A stretch of 64,000 nucleotides of DNA from Oligoflexia bacterium (GCA_019694465.1 JAIBBV010000006.1:18843-82842), one strand, 5' to 3'. Shown: positions 846 through 39,154, counted from the stretch's first letter. Made by a program: numbers and translations. The notes: generated by a model from the letters alone, not told the origin.

Positions 846-934
846 AACTATTATTTGCCTCAAAATTTATTTTGATTGAATCCTCTGCGCTTCGAAGCTA
901 GTTTTCCCAAGGGGGGCTTCATAAGGTTGGAGGT

Positions 935-1897
935 ATGCCAGTAGTTTTAGCCGCTTTGCCCTGTGAAGAAGACGCTAGTGATAGCGAAGCTATTCTTCCG
1001 GTTCCAAGTGTCGATAGTCCAAATGACTTTGCGGATGCGGTTATAGGTAATGTAGCAGCTGGATTTCACAGACTACATGCTAGAACTGATCAAGATCGCG
1101 TGAAATTTGCCATCATCGATCGGGCAATTGGTTGGGTGGGGCATGAGCTTGAAATGCATGGTGTAGCACCCAGAGCAGAAGTACTCTCACTTTTTTGCCA
1201 ACTTGTGTTGGCCTATTTTTCTGGGAATTCTTCGTCTAGATATGGATTAGATGAACTTCTGGCCCTTAAAAAAGGGGCAATTTTACCGCAGGGTGTCCCT
1301 GAGCAATTTGCTCTGCTCTTTAAGCTGTCGCAGGAGGGACAAGTTTCTGAATCTCCATTACCGCCTTCCCAACGGGCAAGTCGCGAGGCCTTAACTAGAT
1401 TTGCTAAGCAATATCAGATTCTTGGTGAGCAAATTGGGGTTGCTTCCAATTTGCGTGGGGCGGAGGCGATTGCTGCGCTTTGGGCAATTAGTGGTGTGCC
1501 ACCGCAGCTAGCTAATTCAGACACGGAACATGTTTACGTTGGCACTATAGGAAATTGCTTTGAACTTTTTCTGCATGGAGAAATTGAATGGTGGAAACCG
1601 GTAGAATTTCCTGAAGATATGGATGATGGCAATCAGGTTCAGGACCTTAAGTCCCCAAAGTTAGATCCAGCCTGTCAGGCCCTGAATGAGGAGAAGCAAC
1701 AACGAGACAGGATTCGTGATTTACTAGTGGCAGCAAGAGAAAGTGATTTTGTAGAAATCCAACTCGAGGACGGACGTACGTTCAGAGGGGCGCTGGTATT
1801 TAACCCATTTACTGGGGAAGGTCGGTTAATAAACCTCGATGAGGAATTCTCGTTTGATTTCCATTTGGAACAGGTGCAGACGGTTAAGATTTCCTAG
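935..1897 (+). CDS. hypothetical cytoplasmic protein (320 aa)
   Basis: A clean 320-aa ORF with balanced composition that fills the gap between neighbouring genes. No recognisable motif. Confidence 0.5.
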   Translation: MPVVLAALPCEEDASDSEAILPVPSVDSPNDFADAVIGNVAAGFHRLHARTDQDRVKFAIIDRAIGWVGHELEMHGVAPRAEVLSLFCQLVLAYFSGNSSSRYGLDELLALKKGAILPQGVPEQFALLFKLSQEGQVSESPLPPSQRASREALTRFAKQYQILGEQIGVASNLRGAEAIAALWAISGVPPQLANSDTEHVYVGTIGNCFELFLHGEIEWWKPVEFPEDMDDGNQVQDLKSPKLDPACQALNEEKQQRDRIRDLLVAARESDFVEIQLEDGRTFRGALVFNPFTGEGRLINLDEEFSFDFHLEQVQTVKIS

Positions 1898-1971
1898 GGT
1901 TTCTTTGATGTTGAAGCATTTACAGACACTTAGAGTCCGTTTCAAAGGCACCCCAGACAAGACATAATGGG

Positions 1972-2015
1972 CTCAAATTGCGAGCAAAGCGAAGCATTTT
2001 GCTCCATTTTGTGCG
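1972..2015 (+). repeat. copy 1 of a ~45-bp dispersed repeat with core gcgagcaaagcgaagc
   Basis: ctcaaattgcgagcaaagcgaagcattttgctccattttgtg. Related copies are at 4712-4760 and 25272-25320, all in the same orientation, each just downstream of a plus-strand gene. Confidence 0.55.
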
Positions 2016-2089
2016 GACTCTTCGCTGCCCATCTAGCGTCCACACTTTCCATAAATTTTATTGCTCCCTTTTATTAAGCAAGACCTATA

Positions 2090-4615
2090 ATGTGTCGATT
2101 TCTTTTGGAATTGATGCGACGCGCCCTATCTCTCATGCTATTGGCAGTTAGCTGCCTAATTACTCTCGCCACAGCTGCGCGAGCAGATTCCATTTCCGAT
2201 AATCCGATTGTCTTTGTTACCATGGTGCCAAATCCAGCGGACTTTGGAACATTAGCGGCGACATTTGGCAATCACACGGCTACTCCTTCTACAGCGGTGC
2301 GTGGGGGAGATTTGTGGATACGCTACCCGGATGGCTCTTTGAAAAATCTTACTAGTGCTGCCGGGTATGGGAATACTGGATTTCAGGGCGCTGGTGCCAT
2401 TGCTGTGCGGGATCCTTCCGTGCACTGGGATGGGGCAAAGGTAATCTTTAGCATGGTGGTAGGTGCACCGACTCAGCAATATCAACTTACTTCACATCGT
2501 TGGCAGTTATATGAAATTACTGGCTTGGGGGCCTCAGAAACTCCAGTAATTACGAAAGTTGCCGGTCAGCCTGCTAACTACAACAATATTTCTCCGACCT
2601 ATACCAGTGACGACTCCATCATATTTGTCTCGGATCGTCCGCGCGATGATACAGTACTGCATACATATCCGCAGCGTGATGAATATGAGTCATCGCCGGT
2701 CAATTCGGGGCTGTGGAAGCTAAATGTCGCATCGAGTGAATTAAAGCTGCTTGATCACGCTCCATCTGGAGATTTTAACCCGATCGTTGATAGTTTTGGT
2801 CGTGTAGTTTTTACGCGTTGGGATCATCTTCAGCGTGATCAGCAGAATGTTGGCGTAAGTTTTGGTGCATTTAACTACGAAAGTGAAGTTAGCAGCACTG
2901 CTTTATCATCAGCCGCAGAGGTGTTTCCCGAACCTAGATCGACGCTCGACCCCGACTACGTCTCAACTGTGAACTTGCACACATTTAATCAGTTCTTCCC
3001 GTGGATGATGAATCAGGACGGCACCGGACTTGAGACTCTCAATCATGTGGGCCGCCAGGAAATAGGGCTGTACTCGGAGCGAAGCTTTAACAACGATCCC
3101 AACGTTCAAGAGTTCTACGGACAGTACACGACTGGACAGAATCAAAATGAATTCACCATTTTCCTTCATATTAAGGAAAAGCCCACGCTTTCCGGCACGT
3201 ATGTAGGCACAAGTTGCCAGGAGTTTGGTACACACGCTAGCGGACAGATTATCTCTCTAACTGGAGCGCCCGGCCTGAATCCTGACAACATGCAGGTGAA
3301 CTACATTACGCACCCGGATACCGCGGGAGCGACGGACAATCCAAGTGCTAATCATTCTGGGTTGTACCGAGATCCACTACCACTTTCTAATGGTAAGCTA
3401 ATCGCCGCTCACACTAGCAATACAAGGCAAGATTCCAATATCGGTACGTCATCCGCGCCACTTTCGCGTTATGACTTTCGCCTAAAAGTACTTTCTCAAG
3501 GAGCAAGCTACTTTAGCGCAGGCAGTGCCTTGACATCTGGAATAACCAAGAGCATTAGTTTCTGGAATCCCGACACGTTAGTTACTTACAGTGGGCAGCT
3601 CTGGGAGCTGATGCCAGTCGAGCTTAAGAGCAGAAGCCGGCCAAGTGCTACAAGAGATGAATTGCCACCGGTCGAAGATTCTCTAATAAGTTCACTAAAT
3701 ATCGATGTGGCTGAGCTGGTAGCTTATTTGAAGGTGCAGAATTTGGCGTTGGTGGTTAGTCGAAATTTAACCATGCGCGATCGCAATGATCGTCAGCAGC
3801 CATCGAATTTACGGGTTACTGGTACAGACACACAGACGCTACCAAACTCGGGCACGATCTATGACATTTCATTTTTGCAGTTCTTTCAAGGTGATCTTAT
3901 TCGTGCTTATCAAAGTAGTAGCAGTGCTGGGCGCCGGGTCTTGGCTCAGCCCATGCATTCGGTAGCCGACGGGGTGAACATGGTAACCTCAGGAGCGCCA
4001 TTAGGGTCGGTTAAGCTTGGGGATGATGGTTCTATGGCAGCCTTCGTTCCGGCCGGGCGAGCTTTGAGTTGGCAGCTTACGGCTGAAGATGGTACTCCAG
4101 TTGTACGTGAGCGTTATTGGGTTACCTTTCAACCTGGCGAGATCCGGGTGTGCGCCTCTTGCCACGGAATAAATACCGCCGATCATATGGGCAACCCGGC
4201 TCCCCAAAATAGCCCACAGGCATTGGCAGCCTTACTTGCACATTGGAAGAACCTCCCGGCATCCTCAATCCCAAGTTATACACTTAAGGTAACTGCAAAA
4301 AAGAAGTCAACCCTGGAAAAATTTAGCGTTCTTGCTAGCGGTGGTAGTTCTTCAGCACTACTAGCCCTGCGCGCCAAACTTGGCACTTACTCCTGTAAAG
4401 GGTCTAAGAACTTTGCAAGTGGTAAGACCTCTAGAAAATTAAGTGGTAAATTCCCTTCTATTAAAGGGCTGGCCATTAAGTTTAGTCTTACGAACCAGGG
4501 CTCAACTGCAGCGCTTAAAAAGACAAGCCTTAAACTAAGCGGTCCTAGTGCCTTGAAGTTCAGCTCTAAAAAGTTGAGGTCCGCTTGTAGTGAGATGTTT
4601 GCTAGCTTCAAGTGA
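2090..4615 (+). CDS. secreted beta-propeller (PD40/TolB-like repeat) protein with a single CXXCH motif and a Lys-rich repetitive C-terminal tail
   Basis: N-terminal signal peptide (MCRFLLELMRRALSLMLLAVSCLITLATAARA). Repeated SPDG/FVSDR-like blocks typical of PD40 propeller blades. CASCHG at nt 4151-4168. The last ~110 aa are K/S/L-rich with reiterated K[FL]S units. Confidence 0.6.
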   Translation: MCRFLLELMRRALSLMLLAVSCLITLATAARADSISDNPIVFVTMVPNPADFGTLAATFGNHTATPSTAVRGGDLWIRYPDGSLKNLTSAAGYGNTGFQGAGAIAVRDPSVHWDGAKVIFSMVVGAPTQQYQLTSHRWQLYEITGLGASETPVITKVAGQPANYNNISPTYTSDDSIIFVSDRPRDDTVLHTYPQRDEYESSPVNSGLWKLNVASSELKLLDHAPSGDFNPIVDSFGRVVFTRWDHLQRDQQNVGVSFGAFNYESEVSSTALSSAAEVFPEPRSTLDPDYVSTVNLHTFNQFFPWMMNQDGTGLETLNHVGRQEIGLYSERSFNNDPNVQEFYGQYTTGQNQNEFTIFLHIKEKPTLSGTYVGTSCQEFGTHASGQIISLTGAPGLNPDNMQVNYITHPDTAGATDNPSANHSGLYRDPLPLSNGKLIAAHTSNTRQDSNIGTSSAPLSRYDFRLKVLSQGASYFSAGSALTSGITKSISFWNPDTLVTYSGQLWELMPVELKSRSRPSATRDELPPVEDSLISSLNIDVAELVAYLKVQNLALVVSRNLTMRDRNDRQQPSNLRVTGTDTQTLPNSGTIYDISFLQFFQGDLIRAYQSSSSAGRRVLAQPMHSVADGVNMVTSGAPLGSVKLGDDGSMAAFVPAGRALSWQLTAEDGTPVVRERYWVTFQPGEIRVCASCHGINTADHMGNPAPQNSPQALAALLAHWKNLPASSIPSYTLKVTAKKKSTLEKFSVLASGGSSSALLALRAKLGTYSCKGSKNFASGKTSRKLSGKFPSIKGLAIKFSLTNQGSTAALKKTSLKLSGPSALKFSSKKLRSACSEMFASFK

Positions 4616-4786: not shown

Positions 4787-5995
4787 CTAGCGGGAGGCTG
4801 CGCTGAGGCAACAGCTTGGGCTTCGCTCGCCGCTCCAGCTTGGCTTTACTCCGAGTTCAACAAATCGCTGTATGGCTTGGTAATGGGGAGTGATATCTAT
4901 CCCCTGCTGCGCAAGCCAGGAATCGCAAAAGTAAGTATGTTGATAGCGTTGGCCACCATCACATAGAACTACCACGATCGATCCTTCACTACCCTCGGCA
5001 TGCATGTCTGCTATTAGCTGTAGTGCTCCATAGAAGTTTGTACCAGTTGAGCCGCCGCACTGGCGACCTAGCACTTGTGATAGGTAACGAGTTGCTGCTA
5101 TTGAGGCTGCATCTGGAACACGCACCATTAGGTCTACTACGTCTCTAAGAAACGATCTTTCCACGCGAGGACGGCCTATTCCTTCGATTCGAGATCCGCG
5201 GGCACACCGCAGTTCGCAGTTGCCAGAAACAAAGTAATCAAAAAATACAGAATTCTCTGGGTCAACCACACAAACCCCGCAGTCGAGTCTACGGTAGCGA
5301 ATATAGCGACCAAGGGTGGCTGATGTGCCGCCGGTGCCTGCTCCACAAACAATCCAGCGCGGGATTGGATGTACCTCACTTTGCATTTGAGAAAGGATTG
5401 ATTCAGCTAGGTTGTTATTTGATCTCCAATCTGTTGCACGTTCGGCGTAAGTAAATTGATCGAGGAAAAGTCCCTTACATTGTGTGGCCAGGCGCCTCGA
5501 TTCGTCATAGACAGCGGTAGGGTCATCAATTAGGTGGCACTTGCCGCCATAAAATTCAATCTGTGAAATTTTTTCAGGCGATGTGCTCTTAGGCATCACA
5601 GCAATGAAGGGAAGCCCAAGCAGGCGCGCGAAGTAGGCTTCCGAGATGGCGGTCGATCCGCTTGAAGCTTCAACTAGTGTAGTTCGCTCATGAATCCAAC
5701 CATTACATAGACCGTATAAGAAAAGCGAGCGGGCCAGTCGATGCTTAAGGCTCCCTGTTGGATGACTGGACTCGTCTTTAAAATATAGGTGAATTTTCGG
5801 GAAAGCTGGTAGGGGATAAGGCACCAGATGAGTATCAGCAGAGCGGTTAAAGTCTGCTTCAATGATGCGGACGGCAGTATTTATCCATTCTCGAGGCTGC
5901 ATGTTTAATCCCCTGCAAAGAACTAAGTCTACTGAAAGGATGCTAACATAGAGCACCGTAGTAGTTGATTGTTTTGACACTATGTCAATTGCCAT
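4787..5995 (-). CDS. PLP-dependent cysteine synthase / cystathionine-beta-synthase family enzyme (tryptophan-synthase-beta fold; SbnA/CysK-like)
   Basis: PLP-lysine motif SLKHR, glycine loop GAGTGGT, and ...[25 protein letters not shown]... The true start is probably an internal Met (MQPREW...). Confidence 0.75.
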
Positions 5996-6226
5996 CGGCT
6001 GCGAGTTGCTTGTTACTTTCTAAGAGTCGCATGTTCGGGCGCGGCCTGGGTGCGCAGCCGATGGGTATGACAAGAGTGGTCTAGAAAGGCCCTTTACATG
6101 GAAAAATCTTAACTATTACCTATGTTTGTTTGAGTTTACAGCTATGTTATACTGGCAACTCAAATTTCTCGGCAGTTCTTTCATTACAGGTTAAATAGGG
6201 TTGATGGGGGTTAGGTATCCTAATGG

Positions 6227-8032
6227 TTGGGAAATACTGTCGAATTACGTGGTGAAATTATAGCGATGTCAGGCGATCTTGATCCAATTACAAGAGGTGC
6301 AACTAGGCGGGAGCCTACTACCACTCCTGTTCAGGAGTTAGCTAGAAGTGCTTCGCTGCGGGAACTCGGAGAGCGAGTTATCGGTGATATTTGTGCATTG
6401 TCTGCACCCACCACCGATGAAGCAGGTGTGGCCTTTGCGTTCCGTGGTTCTCTCGATTATTCCAACCCGGTGCTGGCTGCGCATGGCGTCGAGAGAGAAA
6501 ATAGACCGGTGATATGTTGCCAAAACTTTGTAGTTGATGCCTCGGCTGCACAGCTTCTCAGTACTCCGACAGGAGACGCATATCTAACATTTCTTGGAAT
6601 TGGTGCGGCGGGCCCCGATGACGTAGTACTTACGCTGAAGACTCTGCCTGGGCTCCTCGATTATTATAGAGAGATTGGGTTACTAGCGCCCAGCACAAGA
6701 GTTATTGAAGTAACACCGAAATTGGACGGTGATAAGCTTGGCTACCCGTTTACTTCTCCACTTGCGCTCCTTGCGCAGGATCAGGCGGCGCAAGCCCAAC
6801 TTGCTGAGATATCAGAGGGGAGAGGCCGCCCGATTTTGGTTGGCACGTTCTTAACCGATGAAATGCGGGCGGGATTAGCTCGTCTTGGAGTCGACTTCGT
6901 TCAGCAAACACAGCCTGCACTTACCAGCAATAAGCATTTGTTTGGGCTTGCCGGTAAGTCATTAGGGTTCGAAGTTGCACCGCAAGTGGTCATTTCTCAG
7001 CCCAATGACATTGATGCTGCCTGCACGATGACACTAGAATCTATTCGAAACAGAATAAACCGCGGAGACTTAGTTGGACCGCGCGGTTGGATTGGTGGAT
7101 GGGTAAAACTATCCGGTGGGTCGGGTGGTGACTTTGTCCAAAGCATAGTGATCGGTCCAGAAGCTATAGAGCAACTTCGCAGTGGGATGCAAGGCGGAGT
7201 TACTGGCGACGACGCAGCTTTTGGGAAAGTCGTTTCTTCTAGCGCTGCCTATCTCAGCGCTAGAGCACAAGTTGTCGCAGCGATGGATCGCGTTCGCGCT
7301 TCGGTGCAAGATGCCTTTCGATTTAATGATTATGGGCCTGGTGCTGAGGAAAGATTTTGGCCAAGGGATGCTTTTGCCCCTTCAGGCGCGGTGATTATAG
7401 TTGAGCAAGACGTGCGCGCGCGCGGCAGCATTGTGCTGAATGGCAGCAATCTAATGATCGTTAATGCAAATGGAAGTTCTACCCTCGAGGGTTGTTTTGC
7501 ACAGTTAACAGGCCCAGATGGGGACTACCGTGGAAGCATGCCATTTGATTTGGCAGACTTGGGAGCGGAGGTGCGTAGCGATCTGCAACGCCAATTCAAG
7601 GCTGTTGCAACGCTAGCGCATAGGCTAGGGCATCGTGGATACATAGGTGTGGACTTCTTTGTGGTCAAAGATGCTGAAGGTAGGGCAATTCCAATAATGA
7701 CGGAAATGAATGGTCGGATTCCTATTAGCGGGACAGCAAAGATTATAGCCGATAAACTAGGCGCGTCGGCATGGATCAATGTTAATCTAGCTGCCCCTGG
7801 GCATGAGCCGATCAAGGATATAGCGGACTTTAGGCGATTGTTCGGGGATTATGCGGTGCCTAACACTGACCCAACTGGATGTTTTGTAGTGCCACAGGCT
7901 TTCAGGACCCTGCATGGCACGGACGGCAAGATTGAGCCATCATGTGTGCTTAAGGCACTGATAGTTGGGCCTTCTGCTCAGGCATGTATAGATTTTAGGT
8001 CGCGCCTGGCGGATGAGGGATTTGGAAAATAG
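6227..8032 (+). CDS. pre-ATP-grasp / ATP-grasp domain ligase-like protein
   Basis: C-terminal ...YIGVDFFVVKDAEGRAIPIMTEMNGR... matches the ATP-grasp nucleotide-binding core. Long N-terminal domain. Starts at TTG 6227; an alternative ATG is at 6266. Confidence 0.5.
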   Translation: MGNTVELRGEIIAMSGDLDPITRGATRREPTTTPVQELARSASLRELGERVIGDICALSAPTTDEAGVAFAFRGSLDYSNPVLAAHGVERENRPVICCQNFVVDASAAQLLSTPTGDAYLTFLGIGAAGPDDVVLTLKTLPGLLDYYREIGLLAPSTRVIEVTPKLDGDKLGYPFTSPLALLAQDQAAQAQLAEISEGRGRPILVGTFLTDEMRAGLARLGVDFVQQTQPALTSNKHLFGLAGKSLGFEVAPQVVISQPNDIDAACTMTLESIRNRINRGDLVGPRGWIGGWVKLSGGSGGDFVQSIVIGPEAIEQLRSGMQGGVTGDDAAFGKVVSSSAAYLSARAQVVAAMDRVRASVQDAFRFNDYGPGAEERFWPRDAFAPSGAVIIVEQDVRARGSIVLNGSNLMIVNANGSSTLEGCFAQLTGPDGDYRGSMPFDLADLGAEVRSDLQRQFKAVATLAHRLGHRGYIGVDFFVVKDAEGRAIPIMTEMNGRIPISGTAKIIADKLGASAWINVNLAAPGHEPIKDIADFRRLFGDYAVPNTDPTGCFVVPQAFRTLHGTDGKIEPSCVLKALIVGPSAQACIDFRSRLADEGFGK

Positions 8033-9149
8033 TCTAGTGGATACTCTTTCGATTCTAGAGACACTCGTCGGGATTAAATCTGTTTTCCCAAATGAGCAGG
8101 AAGTATCTGCTTGGATCTCCCGGCGCTTGGAGACGTTAGGCTTTTCAGTTGCGAAAGTATTCACGGATAATGAGCGACCGAATCTAGTCGCTACCCTTGG
8201 TAAGGCCAAGACCTACCTTGGTTTTTATGGGCACATGGATACTGTGCCGCCAGCCGCCGATTACGTTCGAGATCCTTTTACTGTGCATAGGGATGGAGAC
8301 ATCCTTCAAGGTCTTGGTGTGTGTGACATGAAGGGAGGGCTTACCTGCATACTGCAGCTAGCTGAATGGGCGACTAAAAGGAAGCTGCCGCTAAAGCTTG
8401 TTTTTGGTGTAGATGAGGAAGATATCTCAAAAGGCGCGCACGATCTCGTAAATTCTGGATTCTTGAACGACATAGGCTTCATGATTGTCGCAGAGAGTGG
8501 CCAGATTGAAAACTTTGACCAGCCAATTAGCGTTTCCCTAGGCCGTAAAGGGCGAGTTGTATTGCAATTCCAAGTACAGGGTCGAGCCGCTCATGCTGCA
8601 GAGCCTCACAAGGGCGTAAACGCGATTGAGAAGGCTGCTCATCTTATTGGCGAATTGGGAAGTATAAATTTGGGTGCACACCGACGACTTGGATCTAGCA
8701 CTCTAGTTGTTCAGGAAATTACTGCAAGGGCTAGCTCCTTTTCGGTCCCAGACCTCTGTGAGGTGGTAGTATCGCTACTTTCTTCGCCTGGAGTTAATAG
8801 CGCTAAAATTTGTGACGATATTCGTAATTTAGCTGCGAAATTAAATATTAAATTACAAATAGCACCGAAGCCTCGACATACTCCCTATGGGGAGGCGTAT
8901 GAGATTGATACCCAGAATCAGTTTTACAGGCGGATTAGCGATGAGATTCTAACACCGCTTGGTGTAACTCCATTTTATACGCCCTCGGTTGCGGACGAGA
9001 ATGTCTTCGCGAACCGATTGAAGATACCTGTGTTAACAATGGGCGTAATTGGCGGTGGTGATCATACCAAAGATGAGTGGGCTAAACTTAGTTCATACGA
9101 AACTCTTATATCTACCTATCGCAATGTGCTAGAACTCTGGCATCAATAG
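8013..9149 (+). CDS. M20 family metallopeptidase/deacylase (ArgE/DapE-like)
   Basis: ...FYGHMDTVPP... and ...GVCDMKGG... metal-binding motifs. Length typical for ArgE/DapE. The start overlaps the upstream gene by 20 nt, consistent with an operon. Confidence 0.8.
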   Translation: MRDLENSLVDTLSILETLVGIKSVFPNEQEVSAWISRRLETLGFSVAKVFTDNERPNLVATLGKAKTYLGFYGHMDTVPPAADYVRDPFTVHRDGDILQGLGVCDMKGGLTCILQLAEWATKRKLPLKLVFGVDEEDISKGAHDLVNSGFLNDIGFMIVAESGQIENFDQPISVSLGRKGRVVLQFQVQGRAAHAAEPHKGVNAIEKAAHLIGELGSINLGAHRRLGSSTLVVQEITARASSFSVPDLCEVVVSLLSSPGVNSAKICDDIRNLAAKLNIKLQIAPKPRHTPYGEAYEIDTQNQFYRRISDEILTPLGVTPFYTPSVADENVFANRLKIPVLTMGVIGGGDHTKDEWAKLSSYETLISTYRNVLELWHQ

Positions 9150-9154
9150 CCGGC

Positions 9155-10174
9155 TTGCTACTTAACGCTATGACTACAAGTGCCAAACTTTGCCTGCTCA
9201 TCTGCGGCGGGACCATCACTATGGTGCAGGACCCGCGCACCAAGACTTTGGTGCCATCAACTGAAATAGCTGAGCTTACCAAGCAAGTGCCGGAGCTTGC
9301 GTCGATTGCAAAGATAGATTCGCTGTTCGTTACGAATATTGATTCTAGCAACATGCTACCGGATACATGGGTTCGGATTGCGGAAATCATTGTACAGCGC
9401 GCTGAGCAATACGATGGCTTTGTAGTAACACATGGTACAGACACCATGGCCTACACAGCTTCGGCCATGTCATTTTTGCTGCAGGGCCTTGGGAAGCCTG
9501 TCGTATTTACCGGCGCCCAAATGCCGATATCTGAGGAATTTGGCTCGGATGCTCGGAATAATTTGGTCTTCGCGGCCACTTTTGCCACTCAAGATATAGG
9601 TGAAGTCTGCATTTTCTTTGGGGCAGAGCTATTGCGTGCCAATAGAGCCCGCAAGTTTTCGCAATTCGATTTTGATGCATTCAAATCATTTAATACGCCG
9701 GCGATTGGTAAGATTGGGATTCGCCCTAAACTCGCCGAGCACAGAATAAGACGTGCCTTGCCGAGTCGACTCGCTACTCCACATTTAGAGCAATCTGTCT
9801 ACCTGCTGAAGTATTTTCCAGGCATGAAGGCCAGCATCATTCCATTGATTATCGCGCAAGGTTTTAGAGGGATAGTGATCGAAGGAGTGGGCGCTGGTAA
9901 TTTGCCATCTGTGCTTGATTTTGCCGGAGAGATAAAGCGTGCCACTAACAGCGGTGTCCCGGTTGTGATGACTACTCAATGCATAGTTGGTGCAGCAGAA
10001 ATGTACATTTATGAAGTTGGCAAATTTGCGGAGCAAAATGGTGCCATATCAGCTTTCGACATGACACCAGAAGCTGCTCTGACAAAGTTAATGTGGGTAC
10101 TGGGACAGACTAGTGCGATTGACGATGTGCGTAGCCTTATGCAGCGAAATCTGGCTGGGGAAATGTCTGAATAG
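9155..10174 (+). CDS. L-asparaginase, type I (cytoplasmic) family
   Basis: N-terminal ...LICGGTITM... (catalytic Thr in GGTI) and ...THGTDTMAYTA... motifs. About 330 aa. Confidence 0.8.
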   Translation: MLLNAMTTSAKLCLLICGGTITMVQDPRTKTLVPSTEIAELTKQVPELASIAKIDSLFVTNIDSSNMLPDTWVRIAEIIVQRAEQYDGFVVTHGTDTMAYTASAMSFLLQGLGKPVVFTGAQMPISEEFGSDARNNLVFAATFATQDIGEVCIFFGAELLRANRARKFSQFDFDAFKSFNTPAIGKIGIRPKLAEHRIRRALPSRLATPHLEQSVYLLKYFPGMKASIIPLIIAQGFRGIVIEGVGAGNLPSVLDFAGEIKRATNSGVPVVMTTQCIVGAAEMYIYEVGKFAEQNGAISAFDMTPEAALTKLMWVLGQTSAIDDVRSLMQRNLAGEMSE

Positions 10175-10184
10175 GCAATAACCA

Positions 10185-13100
10185 CTAGCCTTTGCTTAAT
10201 GCATCGAGTTCCCTCTGTAGACGCACTAAATTTGGATGTCCCGGAAGCAAACGTAATGCTGATGCTACGTATGGCTTTGCTTCACCGAAGCGACGCCCAT
10301 CAACAAGGTGCAGAGCAGCATGTACGTATGGCTCTGGGTTCTCTGGATTGGCTTGGATACTACTTAGTAGAGCCTTGAGCGTCGCATCCTCTGTTCGTCC
10401 TGCCGCCGGGGCCTTGTGGGCTTCCACGAAGTAGCCCACCGTGAATGCTTCATTGAAGCAAGGAGTGTCCAATTCAAAGAAAAGGCGAGGTAGCGTATCT
10501 GCAAGCAGAGCCCTTAGACCGGCATAGTTTGCTCCAAGCCGCTGCTGTTGAGATTGGATGGCATTGGCGGCACGTGCGCATTCCTGTGCCAGATGCTTGA
10601 AGAATCCACCATTAGGCGTAATTTCATTAATTTCCAGGCCACTCTTCTCGCAAAAATGCCTATACCATTGAGGTGTGTAGCCTCCGTAAAAGTGGAAGGG
10701 CAGCTGATGCAAGCCAGAACCAAGTGGCGCAGTTAATAGTAGGGTTCCGCCCGGCTTAAGGATGCGAGAAATCTCACGCAAGGCGCCTATTGGATCGGGA
10801 ATATGCTCAAATACTTCAGTGCAAATTACTGCGTCAAATGTAGCATCTGGTACAGGTATACTAACGATATCTGATACATAATCAATGTGACCATAGTCTT
10901 TGGTGCCACCCAACTTTTCACCCTCGTACTGCTTGAAATCGTGAGTTTTATATTCGCAATGTGCGAATAAGTGGCGATAAGGGCAAGTGCCTGCACCCAC
11001 ATCTAATACTTTACTGCCGGCGGGAATGCGTTTGGCCTTCTCTTGGATCCAGCGATCTCTTCCGCGTTGGTTGAAATCATAAATCTCTTCAATCGGCACT
11101 TGAGCGCTTGGTCCTACCTCCAGTCCCGGAATATTCTCTAGAATTTGAGTGGTATTGCATGCCCGAGGCTGTTCACCACCTGCCAGCACTTTGCGTAGTT
11201 GCTCACGCCAAACTTCATAAGTTGGTCGCTCGGCATCAGCAACAGTGCTTTCCCAAAGTAGAGCATCCGCTGCTTGTAGCAATTGCTCTCGTGATAGAGA
11301 GCGACTCTTGATTGCTTGAACTTCTACATTACAAAGATGGGGTTCATGCGGCCATGAATTCTGTTGTATGGATACCTGATCAAATCCAAGTGCTGCTAGC
11401 GTTCTGCGGTAACGTTCTGGAAACCAGTGATCGACATGATAAGCCCAGGAAGCGGCTTGGTCTCCAGCTAAGTGACGCACAGTCCCCATCTTTACCCGCC
11501 AGTTTGGGTGTGACAGCAGGTTACGCGCAGCGCCTTCTAGATCGGGAGTCTCAATGTGTAGTTTTCCACCACACTTGAGTGCCTCATGCCATTTTATTAG
11601 CATAGCCAGGGCAGTAACTCGGCTGAAGTGTTCAAAAACATGGTGCAGCCGAATCTCGTCTACACTTTCCTTATTCACTACCAGACGCGTAATATCTGCA
11701 AAGATATCAGCACGTATTTGCATAACATTATGCTCACTGGGTGGATAATCCACGTTGATATAACCATCAAAGTGTTGCTCCCCGCATCCCAGGTGCAGAC
11801 GTAGTGGACTTCCAGTGGCCCATAGGCCGCGTGTTGTCAGTGCTTGGTTGAAGTTCTCGCCAGAGGCTACTGTTGTTGTGTGCACGGTGCTTTTCTCCTT
11901 TTTAGTATCTGTTTTAGTGCCAACGGCTGGCCACCAGGATCGATCCTCTGGGGGCGCAGAAGCTGGGAGACGGTATGGGTCCACGGTGATTAACTTTGTA
12001 ATCCACTCGGGAGTATGTATTCCGATGGTAGCGAGAGCTGACGATAGGCTCCAAAGTACCTTCCAGCCCCCTTGAATCCCGGGGACCTCAAGCAATTCTA
12101 CTAATTCAACAATTTCCGTTGGGAGCGCCTGATGATCCGGTGCGGAGAGTGCTTGAAGAGCTAAGGTACGGTCAATTGGAACAGATAGCGCGTCACTTGC
12201 TCCAAGCTTATCTAATACAGAAAGCAGAGTGGAGAACTTTTGTCTCCCGAAAAATGCATTTGTGTGTAGTAGAATGCAGATAAACCTTGCTGCGTCAGCC
12301 TTTGTTACTAAGGGTATATTAAGCTCTGTGAACAAGTACCGAATAATACTGCCAGTTCCTTGCGGTAGTAGGGCCTGTAGTTCTTTTTCGACGGTCTGGC
12401 ATTGCTCAGCCCACGCTATCCCATAGCCCGCATTGTGTGATTGATTGGCAACCGAGGCCTGTCTATGGCTCTCCAATGGTGGTGAAGGCCTAAGTAGAGC
12501 GCTTGGTTCATCATAGCGAGGTTCGACGCCACTATCTATGAAATTTAGTACCTGAGGAATTAAACTCTCAGTGGTATGTAGCGCCATTAGTTTCTTCCGA
12601 GCGGCCTCAGATATGTTACGTGCAAATTGCTTATCATTTTGTACGCGCTCAATGTGAGCAGCCAGCTGTTCTGGGTTGGATTTTGAGTAGAAAAGAATTT
12701 CCTTTCCGTCTTCAAATAGCGCCTTGGTTCGTGGCCTGAATTCTATTTCCCATGAAATTACTGGACGTGCGGCAGCCATACCATCTATGACTCGGCTAGG
12801 TAACATGCGGCCATATTGAGGAAGATTTACAACCGCACAGCCTTCAGTTAGCCCTTCGAGCCAAAGTCCATAACAGTCGCGTCGGATCGAACGTAGCACC
12901 CTCAAGTATTCAGGAAGCATACGTTGCTCGAATGGCACTTGCCCGCTGAGTTGTTGCTCTAAGGCCCGATGCAAATTGTCGTACATCGCAGGAAGCTTAG
13001 TGAACATCTCTGGTGATGAGTCTGGCCGCACGAGCAATTTGGATAGGCGTGAATGCGCAAGCCACTCTTTACGGTCACCGTAAAGAGCACCGTAAAAAAT

Positions 13101-13655
13101 AGCTTCGGACCGCTTGGGCGCTGAAACTTCGCGCTGAATATAACGGCTGGGTACCTTTGCATTTGATAGCCACATTGAAGGTAAAGTACCTGAGCTGTTA
13201 AATCGCTCTACATCTACCTCGTCTACGGCCAGTAAGTGTGTGGCAAAACGCAGATTTCGTTCGGTATTGGCGATGCGGCGCTTTGTCCCTTCTGGGTTGG
13301 TTGTAAATTCTCGAGGGTCAGTAGCGATCGACTCGCACAGAAAGCCAAGTCGGACTGGAGCGAGGGTTGAGAGCCATTCCAGAAAATTGTCGTCGTACTG
13401 GGAGTGGCCAATATCAAACCACACCATGTCAAAGCGTTTGTTCCCAATCAGATGACGGGCAAATGTAAGCCAGGATGGTCCTTGTGAAGAAGCGAACGTA
13501 GGATGGAAGAGAGAAGGAATAGTCAGAAAATCAATCCCATGAGCTTCGAAGCCCTCCTCGAATCCAAGTCCGGTTGGATACGACCAATGACTAGCATCTT
13601 GCCAGGTGCGAAATTCAAGAGGGATGAAGAGAACTGCTGGCTTCCGTGTCGTCAT
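10185..13655 (-). CDS. multidomain glycan-modifying protein: GT-B (GT1/GT4-like) glycosyltransferase + two class-I SAM-dependent methyltransferase domains + C-terminal TPR
   Basis: N-terminal region ends with a GT-B C-terminal signature (IDGMAAARPVISWEIEF...EDGKEILFYS...). Two separate MTase motif-I stretches (LHLGCGEQHFDGYINVD and LDVGAGTCPYRHL...LKPGGTLLL). TPR-like C-terminus. Start overlaps the stop of the upstream gene (ATGA). Confidence 0.7.
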   Translation of the reverse strand: MTTRKPAVLFIPLEFRTWQDASHWSYPTGLGFEEGFEAHGIDFLTIPSLFHPTFASSQGPSWLTFARHLIGNKRFDMVWFDIGHSQYDDNFLEWLSTLAPVRLGFLCESIATDPREFTTNPEGTKRRIANTERNLRFATHLLAVDEVDVERFNSSGTLPSMWLSNAKVPSRYIQREVSAPKRSEAIFYGALYGDRKEWLAHSRLSKLLVRPDSSPEMFTKLPAMYDNLHRALEQQLSGQVPFEQRMLPEYLRVLRSIRRDCYGLWLEGLTEGCAVVNLPQYGRMLPSRVIDGMAAARPVISWEIEFRPRTKALFEDGKEILFYSKSNPEQLAAHIERVQNDKQFARNISEAARKKLMALHTTESLIPQVLNFIDSGVEPRYDEPSALLRPSPPLESHRQASVANQSHNAGYGIAWAEQCQTVEKELQALLPQGTGSIIRYLFTELNIPLVTKADAARFICILLHTNAFFGRQKFSTLLSVLDKLGASDALSVPIDRTLALQALSAPDHQALPTEIVELVELLEVPGIQGGWKVLWSLSSALATIGIHTPEWITKLITVDPYRLPASAPPEDRSWWPAVGTKTDTKKEKSTVHTTTVASGENFNQALTTRGLWATGSPLRLHLGCGEQHFDGYINVDYPPSEHNVMQIRADIFADITRLVVNKESVDEIRLHHVFEHFSRVTALAMLIKWHEALKCGGKLHIETPDLEGAARNLLSHPNWRVKMGTVRHLAGDQAASWAYHVDHWFPERYRRTLAALGFDQVSIQQNSWPHEPHLCNVEVQAIKSRSLSREQLLQAADALLWESTVADAERPTYEVWREQLRKVLAGGEQPRACNTTQILENIPGLEVGPSAQVPIEEIYDFNQRGRDRWIQEKAKRIPAGSKVLDVGAGTCPYRHLFAHCEYKTHDFKQYEGEKLGGTKDYGHIDYVSDIVSIPVPDATFDAVICTEVFEHIPDPIGALREISRILKPGGTLLLTAPLGSGLHQLPFHFYGGYTPQWYRHFCEKSGLEINEITPNGGFFKHLAQECARAANAIQSQQQRLGANYAGLRALLADTLPRLFFELDTPCFNEAFTVGYFVEAHKAPAAGRTEDATLKALLSSIQANPENPEPYVHAALHLVDGRRFGEAKPYVASALRLLPGHPNLVRLQRELDALSKG

Positions 13656-14197
13656 GAAACTCCCTTAACAGCAGTAGTTCGGTATCCATCGTCACGCTGT
13701 GATACAATGGGATCAGTGACTGGCCACCAAAGTTTTAGGTCCGGATCATTCCAGTATAATGTGAACTGCCCAGCGCGGTTGTAGTATGTGGTCTGCTTGT
13801 AGGCAAAGACTGCCTGCTCTGATAGCACCAAATGGCCGTTGCCAAAATGTGGAGGCACCAATACTTGAGAGCGATTTGTTTCAGAAAGGGTGAATGCCTG
13901 CCATTTTCTATACTGAGCGGACTTTGAGTCGTTGTTGATCACTAGTAAGTACAGAGATCCGACAAGGCAAGAAATTAGCTTCCAGGTTTCAGCGTCACCA
14001 TGCACACCACGCAGTACATTTTTGTTGGACACTGAAATGTTGTCTTGGCAGAAATGCTGATCGATTCCGGCCTCGCGGTAGAGCTTCTCGTTGTAGAGTT
14101 CGACATGCCGGCCGCGGAAATCCTCGAATTGTGTTGGTGGGCTAATCAGTAACACCCCATCCAAGTTAGTCTTTTGCACGTTAAGCTGGGTCGACAT
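13652..14197 (-). CDS. dTDP-4-dehydrorhamnose 3,5-epimerase family (RmlC-like cupin)
   Basis: FEDFRGRHVE, QDNISVSNKNVLRGVHG, KLISCLVGSLYLLVIN, VLVPPHFGNGHLVLSEQAVFAYKQTTYY and WNDPDL match RmlC motif by motif. Confidence 0.75.
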   Translation of the reverse strand: MSTQLNVQKTNLDGVLLISPPTQFEDFRGRHVELYNEKLYREAGIDQHFCQDNISVSNKNVLRGVHGDAETWKLISCLVGSLYLLVINNDSKSAQYRKWQAFTLSETNRSQVLVPPHFGNGHLVLSEQAVFAYKQTTYYNRAGQFTLYWNDPDLKLWWPVTDPIVSQRDDGYRTTAVKGVS

Positions 14198-39075: not shown

Positions 39076-39154
39076 GCCAGTTCTATAGCTCAGAGGTTCT
39101 ATATAAAACAGGGTTCATTTAAAAGTTCCTTAAAGCGCTAGAGTTTCCCAGAAA

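What the first reader, a model, noticed from the sequence alone, without database searches (positions are those of the whole stretch)
4787..10174. Divergent PLP-enzyme / ATP-grasp / M20 / asparaginase cluster suggests an undescribed amino-acid-derived small-molecule pathway
A cysteine-synthase-fold PLP beta-replacement enzyme (SLKHR, GAGTGGT) is transcribed divergently from a tightly packed three-gene operon. The operon genes overlap or are almost contiguous. They encode a 601-aa protein with a C-terminal ATP-grasp core (GVDFFVV…EMNGR) and a ~400-aa N-terminal pre-grasp region, an M20 ArgE/DapE-type deacylase, and a type I asparaginase-fold amidohydrolase. None is in a canonical housekeeping context; no cysE/cysM neighbours and no arg or dap genes are nearby. 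This enzyme mix (SbnA-like beta-substitution, ATP-dependent amide ligation, deacylation or amide hydrolysis) is what is seen in diaminopropionate- or dipeptide-type natural-product routes and in specialised amino-acid salvage. The substrates are not deducible from sequence.
Basis: partly seen in the sequence, partly recalled or inferred. Interest (0 to 1): 0.65.

Follow-up and report, generated by a model that had tools for sequence, protein, structure and literature searches.

The report
Uncharacterised ATP-grasp ligase plus M20 hydrolase pair
The four genes are real, but only two of them, a previously unclassified ATP-dependent amide ligase and the metal-dependent amide hydrolase that follows it, travel together across bacteria. 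So this is probably a small make-and-break module for an amino-acid conjugate and not a four-enzyme natural-product pathway.

Summary
All four ORFs exist where stated, in a metagenome-assembled Oligoflexia genome. They are a PLP fold-type II enzyme (minus strand), a 588/601-aa protein, an M20 hydrolase that overlaps it, and a type I asparaginase 5 nt downstream.

The four-gene pathway is not supported. I examined 14 genomic contexts of the 588-aa protein's family, counting the window. No context outside the window has a PLP gene or a type I asparaginase nearby. The PLP enzyme scores as a Cds1-type L-cysteine desulfhydrase (573 bits), not SbnA (133) or CysK (104-149).

The conserved unit is the pair. 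An M20 gene abuts or overlaps the ligase gene in 11 contexts, and a cut-off 12th shows a gene start at the same spacing. Ligase and M20 divergence correlate (r = 0.93). In the two remaining contexts, which do not group together in a rough NJ tree, a beta-aspartyl-peptidase-type Ntn hydrolase replaces the M20.

The 588-aa protein matches no Pfam or NCBIfam model. Its structure model (pLDDT 82) is a full-length ATP-grasp ligase closest to PGM1, BesA and LdmS, and the catalytic motifs are conserved.

The nearest precedent is the Staphylococcus hmrA/ldmS operon (M20D peptidase plus L-Asp–L-Met ligase).

The likely function is ATP-dependent synthesis, and hydrolysis, of an Asp/Glu-donor amide, possibly with lysine. 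Substrates remain inferred.

The parts
6266..8032 (+). ATP-grasp carboxylate-amine ligase of an undescribed family (588 aa; the ORF extends to a TTG at 6227). It is the core of the module.
   Evidence: No Pfam, NCBIfam, PADLOC or PHROG hit. AF2 model pLDDT 82.4, pTM 0.84. Best Foldseek PDB hits are 8ynd, BesA 8yi6, PGM1 3wvq and LdmS 7r8q, at E 1e-14 to 1e-11 and target TM about 0.7. The family profile hits BesA at 5.5e-6, LdmS at 9e-5 and PGM1 at 9e-5. Only 10 close relatives turned up in the word-index search of 5.8e9 proteins, and 133 representatives among 1.84e9.
6932..6934 (+). Lys223 (the N-N-K motif), invariant across 55 family members. I infer it is the phosphate-binding Lys at the start of the central domain.
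   Evidence: Invariant column in A3. It aligns with the PGM1 'sSKAAFR' segment. The functional role is inferred from general ATP-grasp knowledge.
7100..7132 (+). W279-V-K281-L-S-G-G-S-G-G-D289: the ATP-binding Lys strand plus the glycine-rich lid loop.
   Evidence: W279, K281, G287, G288 and D289 are invariant or at least 90% conserved. The segment aligns with PGM1 'vILKQDYGSGSDG'.
7154..7360 (+). Helical insertion (about residues 297-365) between the central and C domains. The window protein has about 22 extra residues here.
   Evidence: Helices H298-309, H316-325 and H327-353; pLDDT dips to 59 around residues 310-320. The closest homologues have a gap here.
7520..7537 (+). G419-D-Y421-R-G423-S424 loop. 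It aligns with the L-Asp-recognition loop of LdmS (Y252-N-G-N255) and with G-Q-Y-W-G-C of BesA.
   Evidence: G419, Y421, G423 and S424 are invariant in the 10 close homologues (A1). In the 55-member alignment (A3) G419 is invariant, G423 is at least 90% conserved, and Y421 and S424 are consensus residues only. The roles of LdmS Y252 and N255 come from PMC9486568. My count of the PDB chain gives an offset of 9 from the paper's numbering, which reproduces D288, D301, N303 and R305.
7703..7717 (+). E480-M-N482-G-R484: the Mg2+-binding and catalytic E/D-x-N-x-R motif of ATP-grasp enzymes.
   Evidence: N482 and R484 are invariant and E480 is at least 90% conserved across 55 members. The motif aligns with LdmS D301, N303 and R305; R305A is inactive.
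8013..9149 (+). M20A (ArgE/DapE/CPG2-like) di-metal amidohydrolase, overlapping the ligase gene by 20 nt (translational coupling is inferred). It is the second core component.
   Evidence: Matches PF01546 and PF07687. It falls below every NCBIfam equivalog cutoff (best is DapE, 141 bits against 289). The metal and catalytic residues H74, D105, E135/E136, E161 and H351 are invariant in 9 partner sequences. Its orthologues follow the ligase gene in 10 further contexts. Partner identities are 43-73% where the ligases are 23-67% identical, with r = 0.93.
9155..10174 (+). Type I (cytosolic/archaeal-type) L-asparaginase. It is probably co-transcribed, but it is found next to the pair only in this lineage.
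   Evidence: TIGR00519 scores 327 bits, above the 260 cutoff. GatD scores 284, below 324, and the GatD N-terminal domain is absent. The GGT20I and HGT95D motifs are present. It starts 5 nt after the M20 stop. It is not found next to the ligase in any of 13 other contexts.
5903..6265 (.). Divergent intergenic region, with presumed promoters for the ligase operon and the PLP gene.
   Evidence: No Rfam match at E<=1 in this region. No sigma-70 consensus site falls in it. No riboswitch was found upstream of the pair in 9 related loci.
4787..5902 (-). Cds1-type PLP-dependent L-cysteine desulfhydrase homologue. It is a neighbour and is not supported as part of the module.
   Evidence: NF052478 Cds1 scores 573 bits (cutoff 600), against 133 for SbnA and 104-149 for the CysK models. 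The best PDB sequence hits are CBS and SbnA, only at E about 1e-26 to 1e-24. No PALP gene occurs near the ligase in any other context.

Best explanation
The conserved functional unit is a two-gene module, not four genes.

Gene 1 (6266-8032) is an ATP-grasp carboxylate-amine ligase from a sparsely distributed, unclassified family related to the PGM1, BesA and LdmS ligases. By the standard ATP-grasp mechanism it phosphorylates a carboxylate with ATP-Mg to form an acyl-phosphate. The phosphate-binding and catalytic residues are K223, K281, the glycine-rich loop, D463, E480, N482 and R484. An amine then attacks the acyl-phosphate to give an amide.

Gene 2 (8013-9149) overlaps gene 1, so translational coupling is likely. 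It is a catalytically intact di-metal M20A amidohydrolase. It most likely hydrolyses that same class of amide, acting either on the ligase product or on the compound that supplies a ligase substrate. Together they would form a make-and-break or salvage pair, like hmrA/ldmS in Staphylococcus.

The most likely chemistry is inferred, not shown. The acyl donor would be an acidic amino acid (Asp or Glu, possibly through the side-chain carboxylate). The acceptor would be an amino acid, with lysine or a related diamino acid as the best guess.

In this Oligoflexia lineage a type I asparaginase has been appended to the operon. It probably interconverts Asn and Asp around the same pool.

The divergently transcribed PLP gene is a Cds1-type cysteine desulfhydrase and is most likely an unrelated neighbour.
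For: Shown:
1. Fold and motifs of an ATP-grasp ligase over the whole length.
2. Ligase-M20 adjacency, with overlap or a gap of at most about 45 nt, in the window and in the contexts of P0004, P0005, P0006, P0008, P0009, P0011, P0015, P0062 and loci L005 and L013. A cut-off P0003 contig shows a gene start at the same spacing.
3. The reverse test. Starting from a Roizmanbacteria M20 (P0187), the abutting upstream 515-aa gene is a family member (hhalign probability 100%, E 2e-72).
5. Pairwise identities of ligases and their M20 partners correlate (r = 0.93 over 28 pairs). The partner M20s form a tight group of 43-73% identity, whereas an unrelated M20 in L007 is 28% identical to the window's M20.
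6. All M20 metal and catalytic residues are invariant.

Supporting the Asp/Glu-donor inference:
- Two ligases that do not group together in a rough NJ tree of 13 sequences (P0027, P0098) are followed by a PF01112 Asparaginase_2 / beta-aspartyl-peptidase-type Ntn hydrolase instead of an M20. In the one whose sequence I could read (L011, next to P0098) the GTVGAVA nucleophile motif is intact.
- The window adds an asparaginase.
- LdmS uses L-Asp as its acyl donor (PMC9486568). BesA joins L-Glu and propargylglycine in a gamma-glutamyl dipeptide, so Glu is presumably its donor (PDB molecule name; product in the abstract listed).
- The LdmS Asp-recognition loop Y252-x-G-N255, and S309, align with Y421-x-G423-S424 and S488. 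All of these are invariant in the 10 close homologues; across 55 family members only G423 reaches 90% conservation.
- Beta-aspartyl is 3-aminosuccinyl. A DapE-like N-succinyl-amino-acid hydrolase and an isoaspartyl peptidase could therefore plausibly share such a substrate (chemical reasoning).

Supporting lysine weakly:
- The M20A relatives are DapE, ArgE and LysK.
- Two divergent CPR loci keep the order ligase-M20-class I LysRS (ligases 33% identical, LysRS 41%).
Against: - No substrate is shown; everything about Asp/Glu and Lys is inference from neighbours and remote alignment at 11-15% identity.
- A ligase and a hydrolase for the same bond would form a futile cycle unless they are regulated, and I found no riboswitch or regulator in the window.
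- The M20 clade looks larger (at least 281 clusters at 90% identity at E<1e-40) than the ligase family (133 representatives at 50% identity). The two counts use different clustering, so this is only a hint that some M20s act without the ligase.
- The asparaginase link rests on one lineage plus a non-homologous analogue in two others.
- The aaRS neighbours may simply reflect dense small genomes.
- Contexts came from only 14 loci, several from related Bdellovibrionota, so the r = 0.93 is inflated by shared phylogeny.
Confidence: 0.55

Rival explanations
1. One reading: all four genes form one amino-acid-derived small-molecule pathway. The PLP enzyme performs an SbnA-like beta-replacement to make a diaminopropionate-type building block. 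The ligase then ligates it, and the M20 and asparaginase trim it.
For: The genes are physically clustered. The PLP gene is divergently transcribed from the operon across a 270-360 nt spacer. The PLP enzyme belongs to the same fold-type II superfamily as SbnA (TIGR03945, E 1e-38; PDB SbnA, E 1e-24).
Against: The PLP enzyme scores 573 bits on the Cds1 cysteine-desulfhydrase model against 133 for SbnA (cutoff 350). Cds1 converts Cys to H2S and pyruvate. No PALP gene and no type I asparaginase occur in 13 other contexts of the ligase family. No SbnB-like partner and no transporter, NRPS or tailoring genes flank the cluster; the neighbours are polysaccharide genes.
Confidence: 0.07
2. A protein or peptide modification cycle. 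The ligase adds amino acids to a protein or peptide terminus, as RimK, tubulin-tyrosine ligase or PGM1 do. The M20 acts as the carboxypeptidase that removes them. The target may be linked to translation.
For: The closest structures include the peptide ligases PGM1 and 8ynd. Weak TTL and RimK Pfam hits appear in a few members. The partner profile resembles carboxypeptidase G2 (E 8e-38). Translation genes lie directly downstream in three contexts: class I LysRS twice, once with a tRNA-binding protein, and a GluRS-type gene.
Against: I noticed no conserved small precursor or target ORF next to the pair, but I did not search for one. The alternative partner is a beta-aspartyl-peptidase-type enzyme, whose family acts mainly on small isoaspartyl peptides and Asn. 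The aligned substrate loop resembles that of the free-amino-acid ligases LdmS and BesA.
Confidence: 0.12
3. A protect-and-release logic as in the LysW/LysX/LysK amino-group carrier system, or gamma-glutamyl protection in BesA and butirosin pathways. The ligase masks an amino group, enzymes encoded elsewhere modify the intermediate, and the M20 releases the final amino acid, for example lysine.
For: An ATP-grasp ligase, an M20 hydrolase and a lysine connection also occur together in the LysX/LysK system (established knowledge). The window M20 hits the [LysW]-lysine hydrolase model weakly (E 3e-20). Class I LysRS lies downstream in two loci. BesA is the top profile hit.
Against: LysK scores 72.8 bits against a cutoff of 363. 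The Pfam annotations and ORF lists of the 14 contexts show no LysZ/Y/J-type kinase, reductase or aminotransferase gene; I did not search specifically for a small LysW-like carrier. RimK-type Pfam similarity appears in only 1 of 55 members, at E 0.08. The tight two-gene unit with variable surroundings argues that no intermediate steps belong to it.
Confidence: 0.1
4. Peptidoglycan-peptide salvage or remodelling in host-dependent bacteria. The M20 (DapE-like) and the ligase (Ddl- or Asl-like) cut and re-join cell-wall stem-peptide or cross-bridge components, for example D-iso-Asx-Lys.
For: The family occurs in Bdellovibrionota/Oligoflexia and in CPR lineages (Roizmanbacteria, Peregrinibacteria; the M20 clade also in Levy- and Daviesbacteria). 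From established knowledge, the D-aspartate ligase of Enterococcus is an ATP-grasp enzyme that makes a beta-Asp-epsilon-Lys bond.
Against: No mur, ddl, racemase or cell-wall genes are consistently adjacent. No signal peptides or periplasmic hints were examined. The ligase has no detectable similarity to Ddl-type Pfam models.
Confidence: 0.08

Closest known systems
Staphylococcus hmrA/ldmS operon: M20D metallopeptidase HmrA plus ATP-grasp L-aspartate-L-methionine ligase LdmS (SAOUHSC_02373; PDB 7r8p/7r8q; PMC9486568)
   Same: It is a two-gene operon that pairs an ATP-grasp L-amino-acid ligase with an M20 metallopeptidase. LdmS is among the best structural hits and profile hits (E 9e-5). The Mg and catalytic residues D288, D301, N303 and R305 align with D463, E480, N482 and R484, and the Asp-recognition loop Y252-x-G-N255 aligns with Y421-x-G-S424. 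The physiological role of the pair is unresolved there too.
   Different: The gene order is reversed: here the ligase comes first. The peptidase is M20A (ArgE/DapE/CPG2-like), not M20D. The ligase is 480-620 aa with a helical insertion, against 406 aa for the LdmS PDB chain, and 11% identical in the structural alignment. No S-box element was found. The taxa differ: Bdellovibrionota and CPR against Firmicutes. The product is unknown.
BesA (L-propargylglycine-L-glutamate ligase, PDB 8yi6) and PGM1-type ATP-grasp peptide ligases (3wvq, 8ynd)
   Same: These are the best structural matches over the full length (E 1e-14 to 1e-12, target TM 0.63-0.74) and the best profile matches (BesA 5.5e-6, PGM1 9e-5, 8ynd 3.6e-4). 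They share the three-domain architecture and the G-x-Y-x-G loop.
   Different: Identity is only 13-15%. Pfam PGM1_C hits 1 of 55 family members, at E 0.07. Those enzymes sit in Streptomyces natural-product clusters without a dedicated M20 partner. This family has an extra helical insertion and a disordered N-terminus.
LysX / LysK of the LysW amino-group carrier pathway (ATP-grasp ligase plus M20 hydrolase in lysine biosynthesis)
   Same: The logic is the same: an ATP-grasp enzyme forms an amide to an amino acid's amino group and an M20 enzyme hydrolyses it. There is also a lysine connection, suggested by class I LysRS neighbours.
   Different: LysK and the other equivalog models are far below cutoff. 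The context annotations show no LysZ/Y/J-type genes, and I did not search for a LysW-like carrier. The ligase is not RimK/LysX-type.
Cds1 (Rv3684) L-cysteine desulfhydrase of Mycobacterium tuberculosis (for the PLP gene only)
   Same: NF052478 aligns end to end (model positions 1-351 of 354) at 573 bits. The PLP lysine motif SLKHR and the GAGTGGT phosphate loop are present. The enzyme converts Cys to H2S and pyruvate (PMC8389258).
   Different: The score is just under the curated cutoff of 600. The phylum is different. The activity is untested. There is no evidence that it works with the ligase operon.

Membership tests
ATP-grasp superfamily | Three-domain ATP-grasp fold (N, central and C domains) | tested here: met
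   AF2 model pLDDT 82, pTM 0.84. 343 PDB chains match at E<=1e-3, and all 50 listed are ATP-grasp enzymes, aligned over about 515-560 columns for most.
ATP-grasp superfamily | ATP-binding lysines, a glycine-rich loop and the E/D-x-N-x-R Mg/catalytic motif | tested here: met
   K223, G288, N482 and R484 are invariant. K281, G287, D289, D463 and E480 are at least 90% conserved in 55 members. They align with LdmS D288, D301, N303 and R305.
ATP-grasp superfamily | ATP-dependent carboxylate-amine ligation through an acyl-phosphate | not testable with these tools
   This needs an enzyme assay.
PGM1 / BesA / LdmS-like amino-acid and peptide ligases | Significant sequence-profile similarity to characterised members | tested here: met
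   The profile of 55 members hits BesA at 5.5e-6, LdmS at 9e-5, PGM1 at 9.2e-5 and 8ynd at 3.6e-4, ahead of the biotin carboxylases.
PGM1 / BesA / LdmS-like amino-acid and peptide ligases | A match to the curated family models (Pfam PGM1_C and pre-ATP-grasp) | tested here: not met
   The window protein has no Pfam hit. PGM1_C hits 1 of 55 members, at E 0.07.
hmrA/ldmS-type operon | An ATP-grasp ligase gene adjacent to and co-oriented with an M20 peptidase gene, conserved across taxa | tested here: met
   11 contexts show adjacency, plus one probable. Co-divergence r = 0.93.
hmrA/ldmS-type operon | The peptidase belongs to the M20D subfamily, and the operon is under S-box/CymR sulfur-amino-acid control | tested here: not met
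   The partner is closest to DapE, CPG2 and ArgE, that is M20A. No S-box or other riboswitch was found in the window or in 9 loci. CymR and CodY sites were not tested.
LysW/LysX/LysK amino-group carrier system | LysK and LysX orthology, with LysW carrier and LysZ/Y/J genes in the neighbourhood | tested here: not met
   [LysW]-lysine hydrolase scores 72.8 bits against a cutoff of 363. Pfam RimK hits 1 of 55 members, at E 0.08. The context annotations list no LysZ/Y/J-type gene. A LysW-like small carrier gene was not searched for.
   133 bits against a cutoff of 349.95. No SbnB-like gene among the neighbouring ORFs.
Cds1 L-cysteine desulfhydrase | A full-length match to NF052478 above its cutoff | tested here: inconclusive
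   573.4 bits against a cutoff of 600, covering model positions 1-351 of 354. This is four times the score of the next model.
Assimilatory cysteine synthase CysK/CysM | A score above the equivalog cutoffs | tested here: not met
   The CysK models score 104-149 bits against cutoffs of 351-387, and CysM scores 90 against 394-413.
Type I L-asparaginase | TIGR00519 above its cutoff, both Pfam domains, and the catalytic Thr motifs | tested here: met
   326.8 bits, above 260.5. PF00710 and PF17763 match. GGT20I and HGT95D are present.
GatD (Glu-tRNAGln amidotransferase subunit) | A score above cutoff, the N-terminal GatD domain, and a GatE partner | tested here: not met
   283.7 bits, below 324. The alignment starts at model position 63 and PDB residue 94, so the N domain is absent. 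No GatE-like match among the neighbouring ORFs scanned.
DapE / ArgE equivalogs | A score above the equivalog or subfamily cutoffs | tested here: not met
   The best is PRK08588 at 141 against 289. The TIGR01910 DapE-ArgE subfamily scores 121.7 against 217.6. General M20 membership and the metal ligands are met.

The most novel reading that the evidence does not exclude
The ligase-hydrolase pair is a minimal 'dipeptide buffer' of host-dependent bacteria (Bdellovibrionota and CPR/Patescibacteria). The ligase would trap imported amino acids as an omega-linked conjugate, for example beta-aspartyl-lysine or gamma-glutamyl-lysine. The M20 enzyme, or in some lineages an isoaspartyl-type Ntn hydrolase, would release them on demand, in some CPR directly upstream of lysyl-tRNA synthetase. 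This would be a polymer-free functional analogue of cyanophycin storage, made by a new ATP-grasp family.
Probability: 0.15. Interest if true: 0.7.

Novelty: new variant of a known kind. Interest (0 to 1): 0.42.

Why it matters
The ligase belongs to a family that none of the curated libraries available here (Pfam, NCBIfam, PADLOC, PHROGs) recognises. The family is rare, with about 130 clusters at 50% identity among 1.8 billion representatives. The few members whose source organism could be named come from Bdellovibrionota/Oligoflexia and candidate-phyla-radiation bacteria. These lineages depend on other cells, and their amino-acid economy is poorly understood. The ligase is almost always welded to an amide hydrolase.

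A defined product would do three things:
- give a function to a conserved gene pair currently labelled 'hypothetical protein + DapE-like';
- correct likely mis-annotation of these M20 genes as succinyl-diaminopimelate desuccinylase in genomes that may lack the DAP pathway;
- shed light on the unexplained ligase/peptidase pairing first seen in hmrA/ldmS.

This is not a new kind of system, and the four-gene 'pathway' that prompted the finding is not real.

Tried and rejected
- Curated family searches. Pfam and NCBIfam on the ligase found nothing. PADLOC and PHROGs also found nothing, so there is no sign of a defence or phage role.
- PDB sequence search with the 10-sequence profile gave only noise. 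It worked only after widening to 55 members.
The genome and metagenome scans with the narrow alignment each returned only one locus. A third homologue search with the wide alignment did not reach beyond the first ten proteins. A tblastn search of plasmids found no match.
- A tandem duplicated pair in L007 was tested and rejected. The upstream 598-aa protein is unrelated to the ligase, and its M20 is only 28% identical to the window's M20.
- A third conserved downstream gene was tested and rejected. The 616-, 568- and 545-aa genes after the M20 in L001, L003 and L005 are unrelated to each other, and the L001 and L003 genes are unrelated to the ligase.
- The AMP-binding gene upstream in three Bdellovibrionota contexts is an acetoacetate-CoA ligase in the one locus I could check, L001. 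I treat it as lineage synteny.
- Riboswitch or leader search. Nothing was found in the window region or in 9 loci. The sigma-70 and terminator scans were uninformative.
- An ACT-domain neighbour homologue was searched for in the window and not found.
- Literature searches for a described ATP-grasp/M20/isoaspartyl system in these taxa found none.

Full report
**What is in the sequence**

The window comes from a metagenome-assembled Oligoflexia genome. The 588-aa protein is 100% identical to NCBI 'MAG: hypothetical protein K1X79_02410 [Oligoflexia bacterium]'.
- 4787..5995 (-): a fold-type II PLP enzyme (PF00291, E 4e-48; SLKHR and GAGTGGT present).
- 6227/6266..8032 (+): a 601/588-aa protein with no Pfam or NCBIfam match.
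- 8013..9149 (+): an M20 hydrolase with a dimerisation domain. It overlaps the previous gene by 20 nt.
- 9155..10174 (+): a type I asparaginase starting 5 nt after the M20 stop (TIGR00519, 327 bits, cutoff 260).

Base composition is even across the region. The surroundings are ordinary chromosomal genes: an amine oxidase, a protein containing an HZS-alpha domain, a glycosyltransferase-methyltransferase fusion, rmlC and a GT2. Further away lie GSDH, EamA, LysR, M48, TerC, CysNC/CysD with a sulfotransferase, and FlhA.

**The 588-aa protein is a complete ATP-grasp ligase of an unclassified family**

- Abundance. A word-indexed search of 5.8 billion proteins found only ten relatives at 38-50% identity, all unnamed. 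An exhaustive profile search of 1.84 billion cluster representatives found 133 at E<=1e-3, of which 67 were at E<=1e-30.
- Structure. An AlphaFold2 model built on the ten-sequence alignment is confident (pLDDT 82.4, pTM 0.84) apart from the first ~60 residues. Foldseek against the PDB puts PGM1-type ATP-grasp peptide ligases first: 8ynd and 3wvq, then BesA 8yi6 and LdmS 7r8q. These hits have E 1e-14 to 1e-11, target-normalised TM 0.63-0.74 and 11-15% identity, aligned over about 515-557 columns. Biotin carboxylases and PurK follow.
- Sequence profile. A 55-member family profile reaches the same four proteins at sequence level: BesA 5.5e-6, LdmS 9e-5, PGM1 9.2e-5 and 8ynd 3.6e-4. Individual members give only sporadic weak ATP-grasp Pfam hits.
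- Catalytic residues. Invariant or near-invariant residues are K223, W279, K281, G287-G288-D289, E380, Q413, G419, G423, D463, E480, N482 and R484. By alignment, D463, E480, N482 and R484 correspond to LdmS D288, D301, N303 and R305. In LdmS these are the Mg2+ ligands, the cation site and the essential catalytic arginine.

The whole protein from about residue 60 is the ATP-grasp fold, with a helical insertion at about residues 297-365. That insertion is ~22 residues longer in the window protein than in its closest relatives.

**The conserved unit is ligase + hydrolase, not four genes**

I obtained 14 distinct genomic contexts of family members, counting the window.
- Adjacency. An M20 gene follows the ligase gene, overlapping, abutting or within about 45 nt, in 11 contexts: the window, P0004, P0005, P0006, P0008, P0009, P0011, P0015, P0062, L005 and L013. 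A cut-off P0003 contig shows a gene start at the same spacing.
- Reverse test. Starting from a Candidatus Roizmanbacteria M20 (P0187), the gene abutting it upstream is a 515-aa family member (hhalign probability 100%, E 2e-72).
- Contig fingerprints.
- Co-divergence. The partner M20s are 43-73% identical to one another where the ligases are only 23-67% identical, and the two sets of pairwise identities correlate (r = 0.93, 28 pairs). Shared phylogeny inflates this figure, but it fits inheritance as a unit.
- Catalytic competence. All M20 metal and catalytic residues (H74, D105, E135/E136, E161, H351) are invariant.
- Subfamily. The M20 is of the M20A type, equally distant from DapE, carboxypeptidase G2 and ArgE, and below every NCBIfam equivalog cutoff.
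- Missing partners. None of the 13 other contexts has a PALP gene or a type I asparaginase.

**A partner swap gives a chemical hint**

In two family members, P0027 and P0098 (the latter's cluster includes a Candidatus Peregrinibacteria protein), the gene after the ligase is not an M20. It is a PF01112 Asparaginase_2 enzyme.
- The one I could read, in L011 next to P0098, matches PF01112 at E 2e-61. Its best NCBIfam model is beta-aspartyl-peptidase, and the GTVGAVA autoprocessing nucleophile motif is intact.
- In a rough NJ tree of 13 ligases the two do not group together, so the swap may have happened more than once.

The window itself adds a non-homologous type I asparaginase after the M20. 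Three kinds of evidence then point to an acidic amino acid (Asp or Glu), possibly through its side-chain carboxylate, as the acyl donor.
1. LdmS uses L-Asp as its carboxylate substrate. BesA joins L-Glu to propargylglycine in a gamma-glutamyl dipeptide, so Glu is presumably its donor.
2. The LdmS Asp-recognition elements Y252-x-G-N255 and S309 align with Y421-x-G423-S424 and S488. All of these are invariant in the ten close homologues. Across 55 members only G423 reaches 90% conservation.
3. Beta-aspartyl is 3-aminosuccinyl. A DapE-like N-succinyl-amino-acid hydrolase and an isoaspartyl peptidase could therefore plausibly share such a substrate. This is chemical reasoning, not a test.

A weaker hint points to lysine or a related diamino acid as the amine. 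The M20A relatives are DapE, ArgE and LysK. Two divergent CPR loci keep the order ligase-M20-(tRNA-binding protein)-class I LysRS, although their ligases are 33% identical and their LysRS 41%. A third context has a GluRS-type gene after the M20.

**The PLP gene**

It scores 573 bits, end to end, on NCBIfam NF052478 'L-cysteine desulfhydrase Cds1' (cutoff 600). It scores 104-149 on the CysK models, 133 on SbnA and 125 on CBS. PDB relatives are remote. Cds1 (Rv3684) converts cysteine to H2S and pyruvate (PMC8389258). The enzyme is therefore neither an assimilatory CysK/CysM nor SbnA-like. It is never syntenic with the ligase elsewhere, so I treat it as a neighbour.

One coincidence is worth recording. 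The only characterised ligase + M20 operon, hmrA/ldmS, is tied to sulfur amino-acid metabolism. I found no evidence that this extends to the window.

**Closest precedent and how the module likely works**

The Staphylococcus hmrA/ldmS operon pairs an M20D Met-X carboxydipeptidase with the ATP-grasp L-Asp-L-Met ligase LdmS. Its authors note the paradox of making and breaking dipeptides and leave the physiological role open (PMC9486568).

The module here has the same logic with different parts:
- a much larger and very divergent ligase;
- an M20A partner, or an Ntn hydrolase, instead of M20D;
- the opposite gene order;
- no S-box or other riboswitch;
- different phyla.

Shown: the fold, the catalytic motifs, the synteny, the co-divergence and the intact hydrolase sites.

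Inferred: that the ligase makes an amide by the acyl-phosphate mechanism; that the hydrolase acts on that amide or supplies a ligase substrate; and that Asp/Glu and perhaps Lys are involved.

In several Bdellovibrionota-type loci a ~216-257-aa protein with a C-terminal ACT domain sits immediately upstream of the ligase, in either orientation. It is a candidate amino-acid-sensing regulator of the pair. The window has no homologue.

**Verdict**

The four-gene pathway interpretation fails its own synteny test. What remains is a genuine, uncharacterised ligase-hydrolase module of modest interest. It is a new variant of a known kind (an ATP-grasp L-amino-acid-ligase-type enzyme paired with an amidohydrolase). 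It is rare in sequence space, and the few members that could be named come from host-dependent bacteria.

Limits:
- Substrates are untested.
- Two fold libraries were unavailable.
- I could not inspect model coordinates, so no pocket analysis was possible.

Noticed in passing
L001:9218-9880(+); L003:8990-9640(-); L005:6997-7770(-); L006:84-725(-); also the P0003 and P0004 contexts: A ~216-257-aa protein with a C-terminal ACT domain (PF13840, best E 3e-6) lies immediately upstream of the ligase gene in six Bdellovibrionota-type contexts, in either orientation. It has no PDB sequence match. It is a candidate amino-acid-binding regulator of the ligase-M20 pair. It is absent from the window.
   Followed up: partly
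L009:2613-4148; L013:7120-7455 and 7557-9878; the P0009 context: Class I lysyl-tRNA synthetase (TIGR00467) follows the ligase-M20 pair in two divergent CPR loci, once behind a Trbp111-like tRNA-binding protein. A GluRS-type gene follows the M20 in another context. This is either a functional hint (lysine supply or translation) or an effect of gene-dense genomes.
   Followed up: partly
L011:9140-10009, L012:5529-6398, and the P0027 context: An Asparaginase_2 (beta-aspartyl-peptidase-type Ntn hydrolase) replaces the M20 as the gene after the ligase in two family members that do not group together in a rough NJ tree. The GTVGAVA nucleophile motif is intact in the L011 copy, the only one whose sequence I could read.
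   Followed up: yes
L007:1288-4437: Just upstream of the ligase-M20 pair there is a second, unrelated M20 gene (28% identical to the window's M20). A 598-aa protein with only a faint DUF4908 hit precedes it. It looked like a tandem duplicate of the pair but is not.
   Followed up: yes
L003:12853-14559: The 568-aa protein downstream of the M20 has weak YheC/D-type ATP-grasp similarity (E 2e-4) but is not a paralogue of the ligase family (hhalign probability 1%).
   Followed up: partly
window 7154-7360: The window's ligase carries about 22 extra residues, at lower model confidence, in the helical insertion compared with its closest homologues. P0002 and P0010 have insertions at the same place.
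   Followed up: no
window 36278-40339 (-): A fused CysN/CysC (GTPase + APS kinase), CysD (PAPS_reduct domain) and a sulfotransferase-family protein lie in a row. This looks like PAPS production for sulfation and not assimilatory sulfur metabolism.
   Followed up: no
window 159-4615 (+): A flavin amine oxidase (cut by the window edge), a 320-aa protein with no family match, and an 841-aa protein with a hydrazine-synthase-alpha middle domain (PF18582, E 3e-10) are co-oriented upstream and convergent with the PLP gene.
   Followed up: no
window 10185-14197 (-): A 1156-aa fusion of a glycosyltransferase-like domain with a class I SAM methyltransferase domain is followed by rmlC. With the GT2 at 14517-15776 it forms a polysaccharide locus next to the operon.
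   Followed up: no
M20 clade: Sources label many close relatives of the partner M20, several of them from named CPR genomes (Roizman-, Levy-, Daviesbacteria), as 'succinyl-diaminopimelate desuccinylase'. Yet the window's M20, their close relative, scores far below the DapE cutoffs, and relatives of this clade sit next to the ligase in every context examined. These labels are probably mis-annotations.
   Followed up: partly
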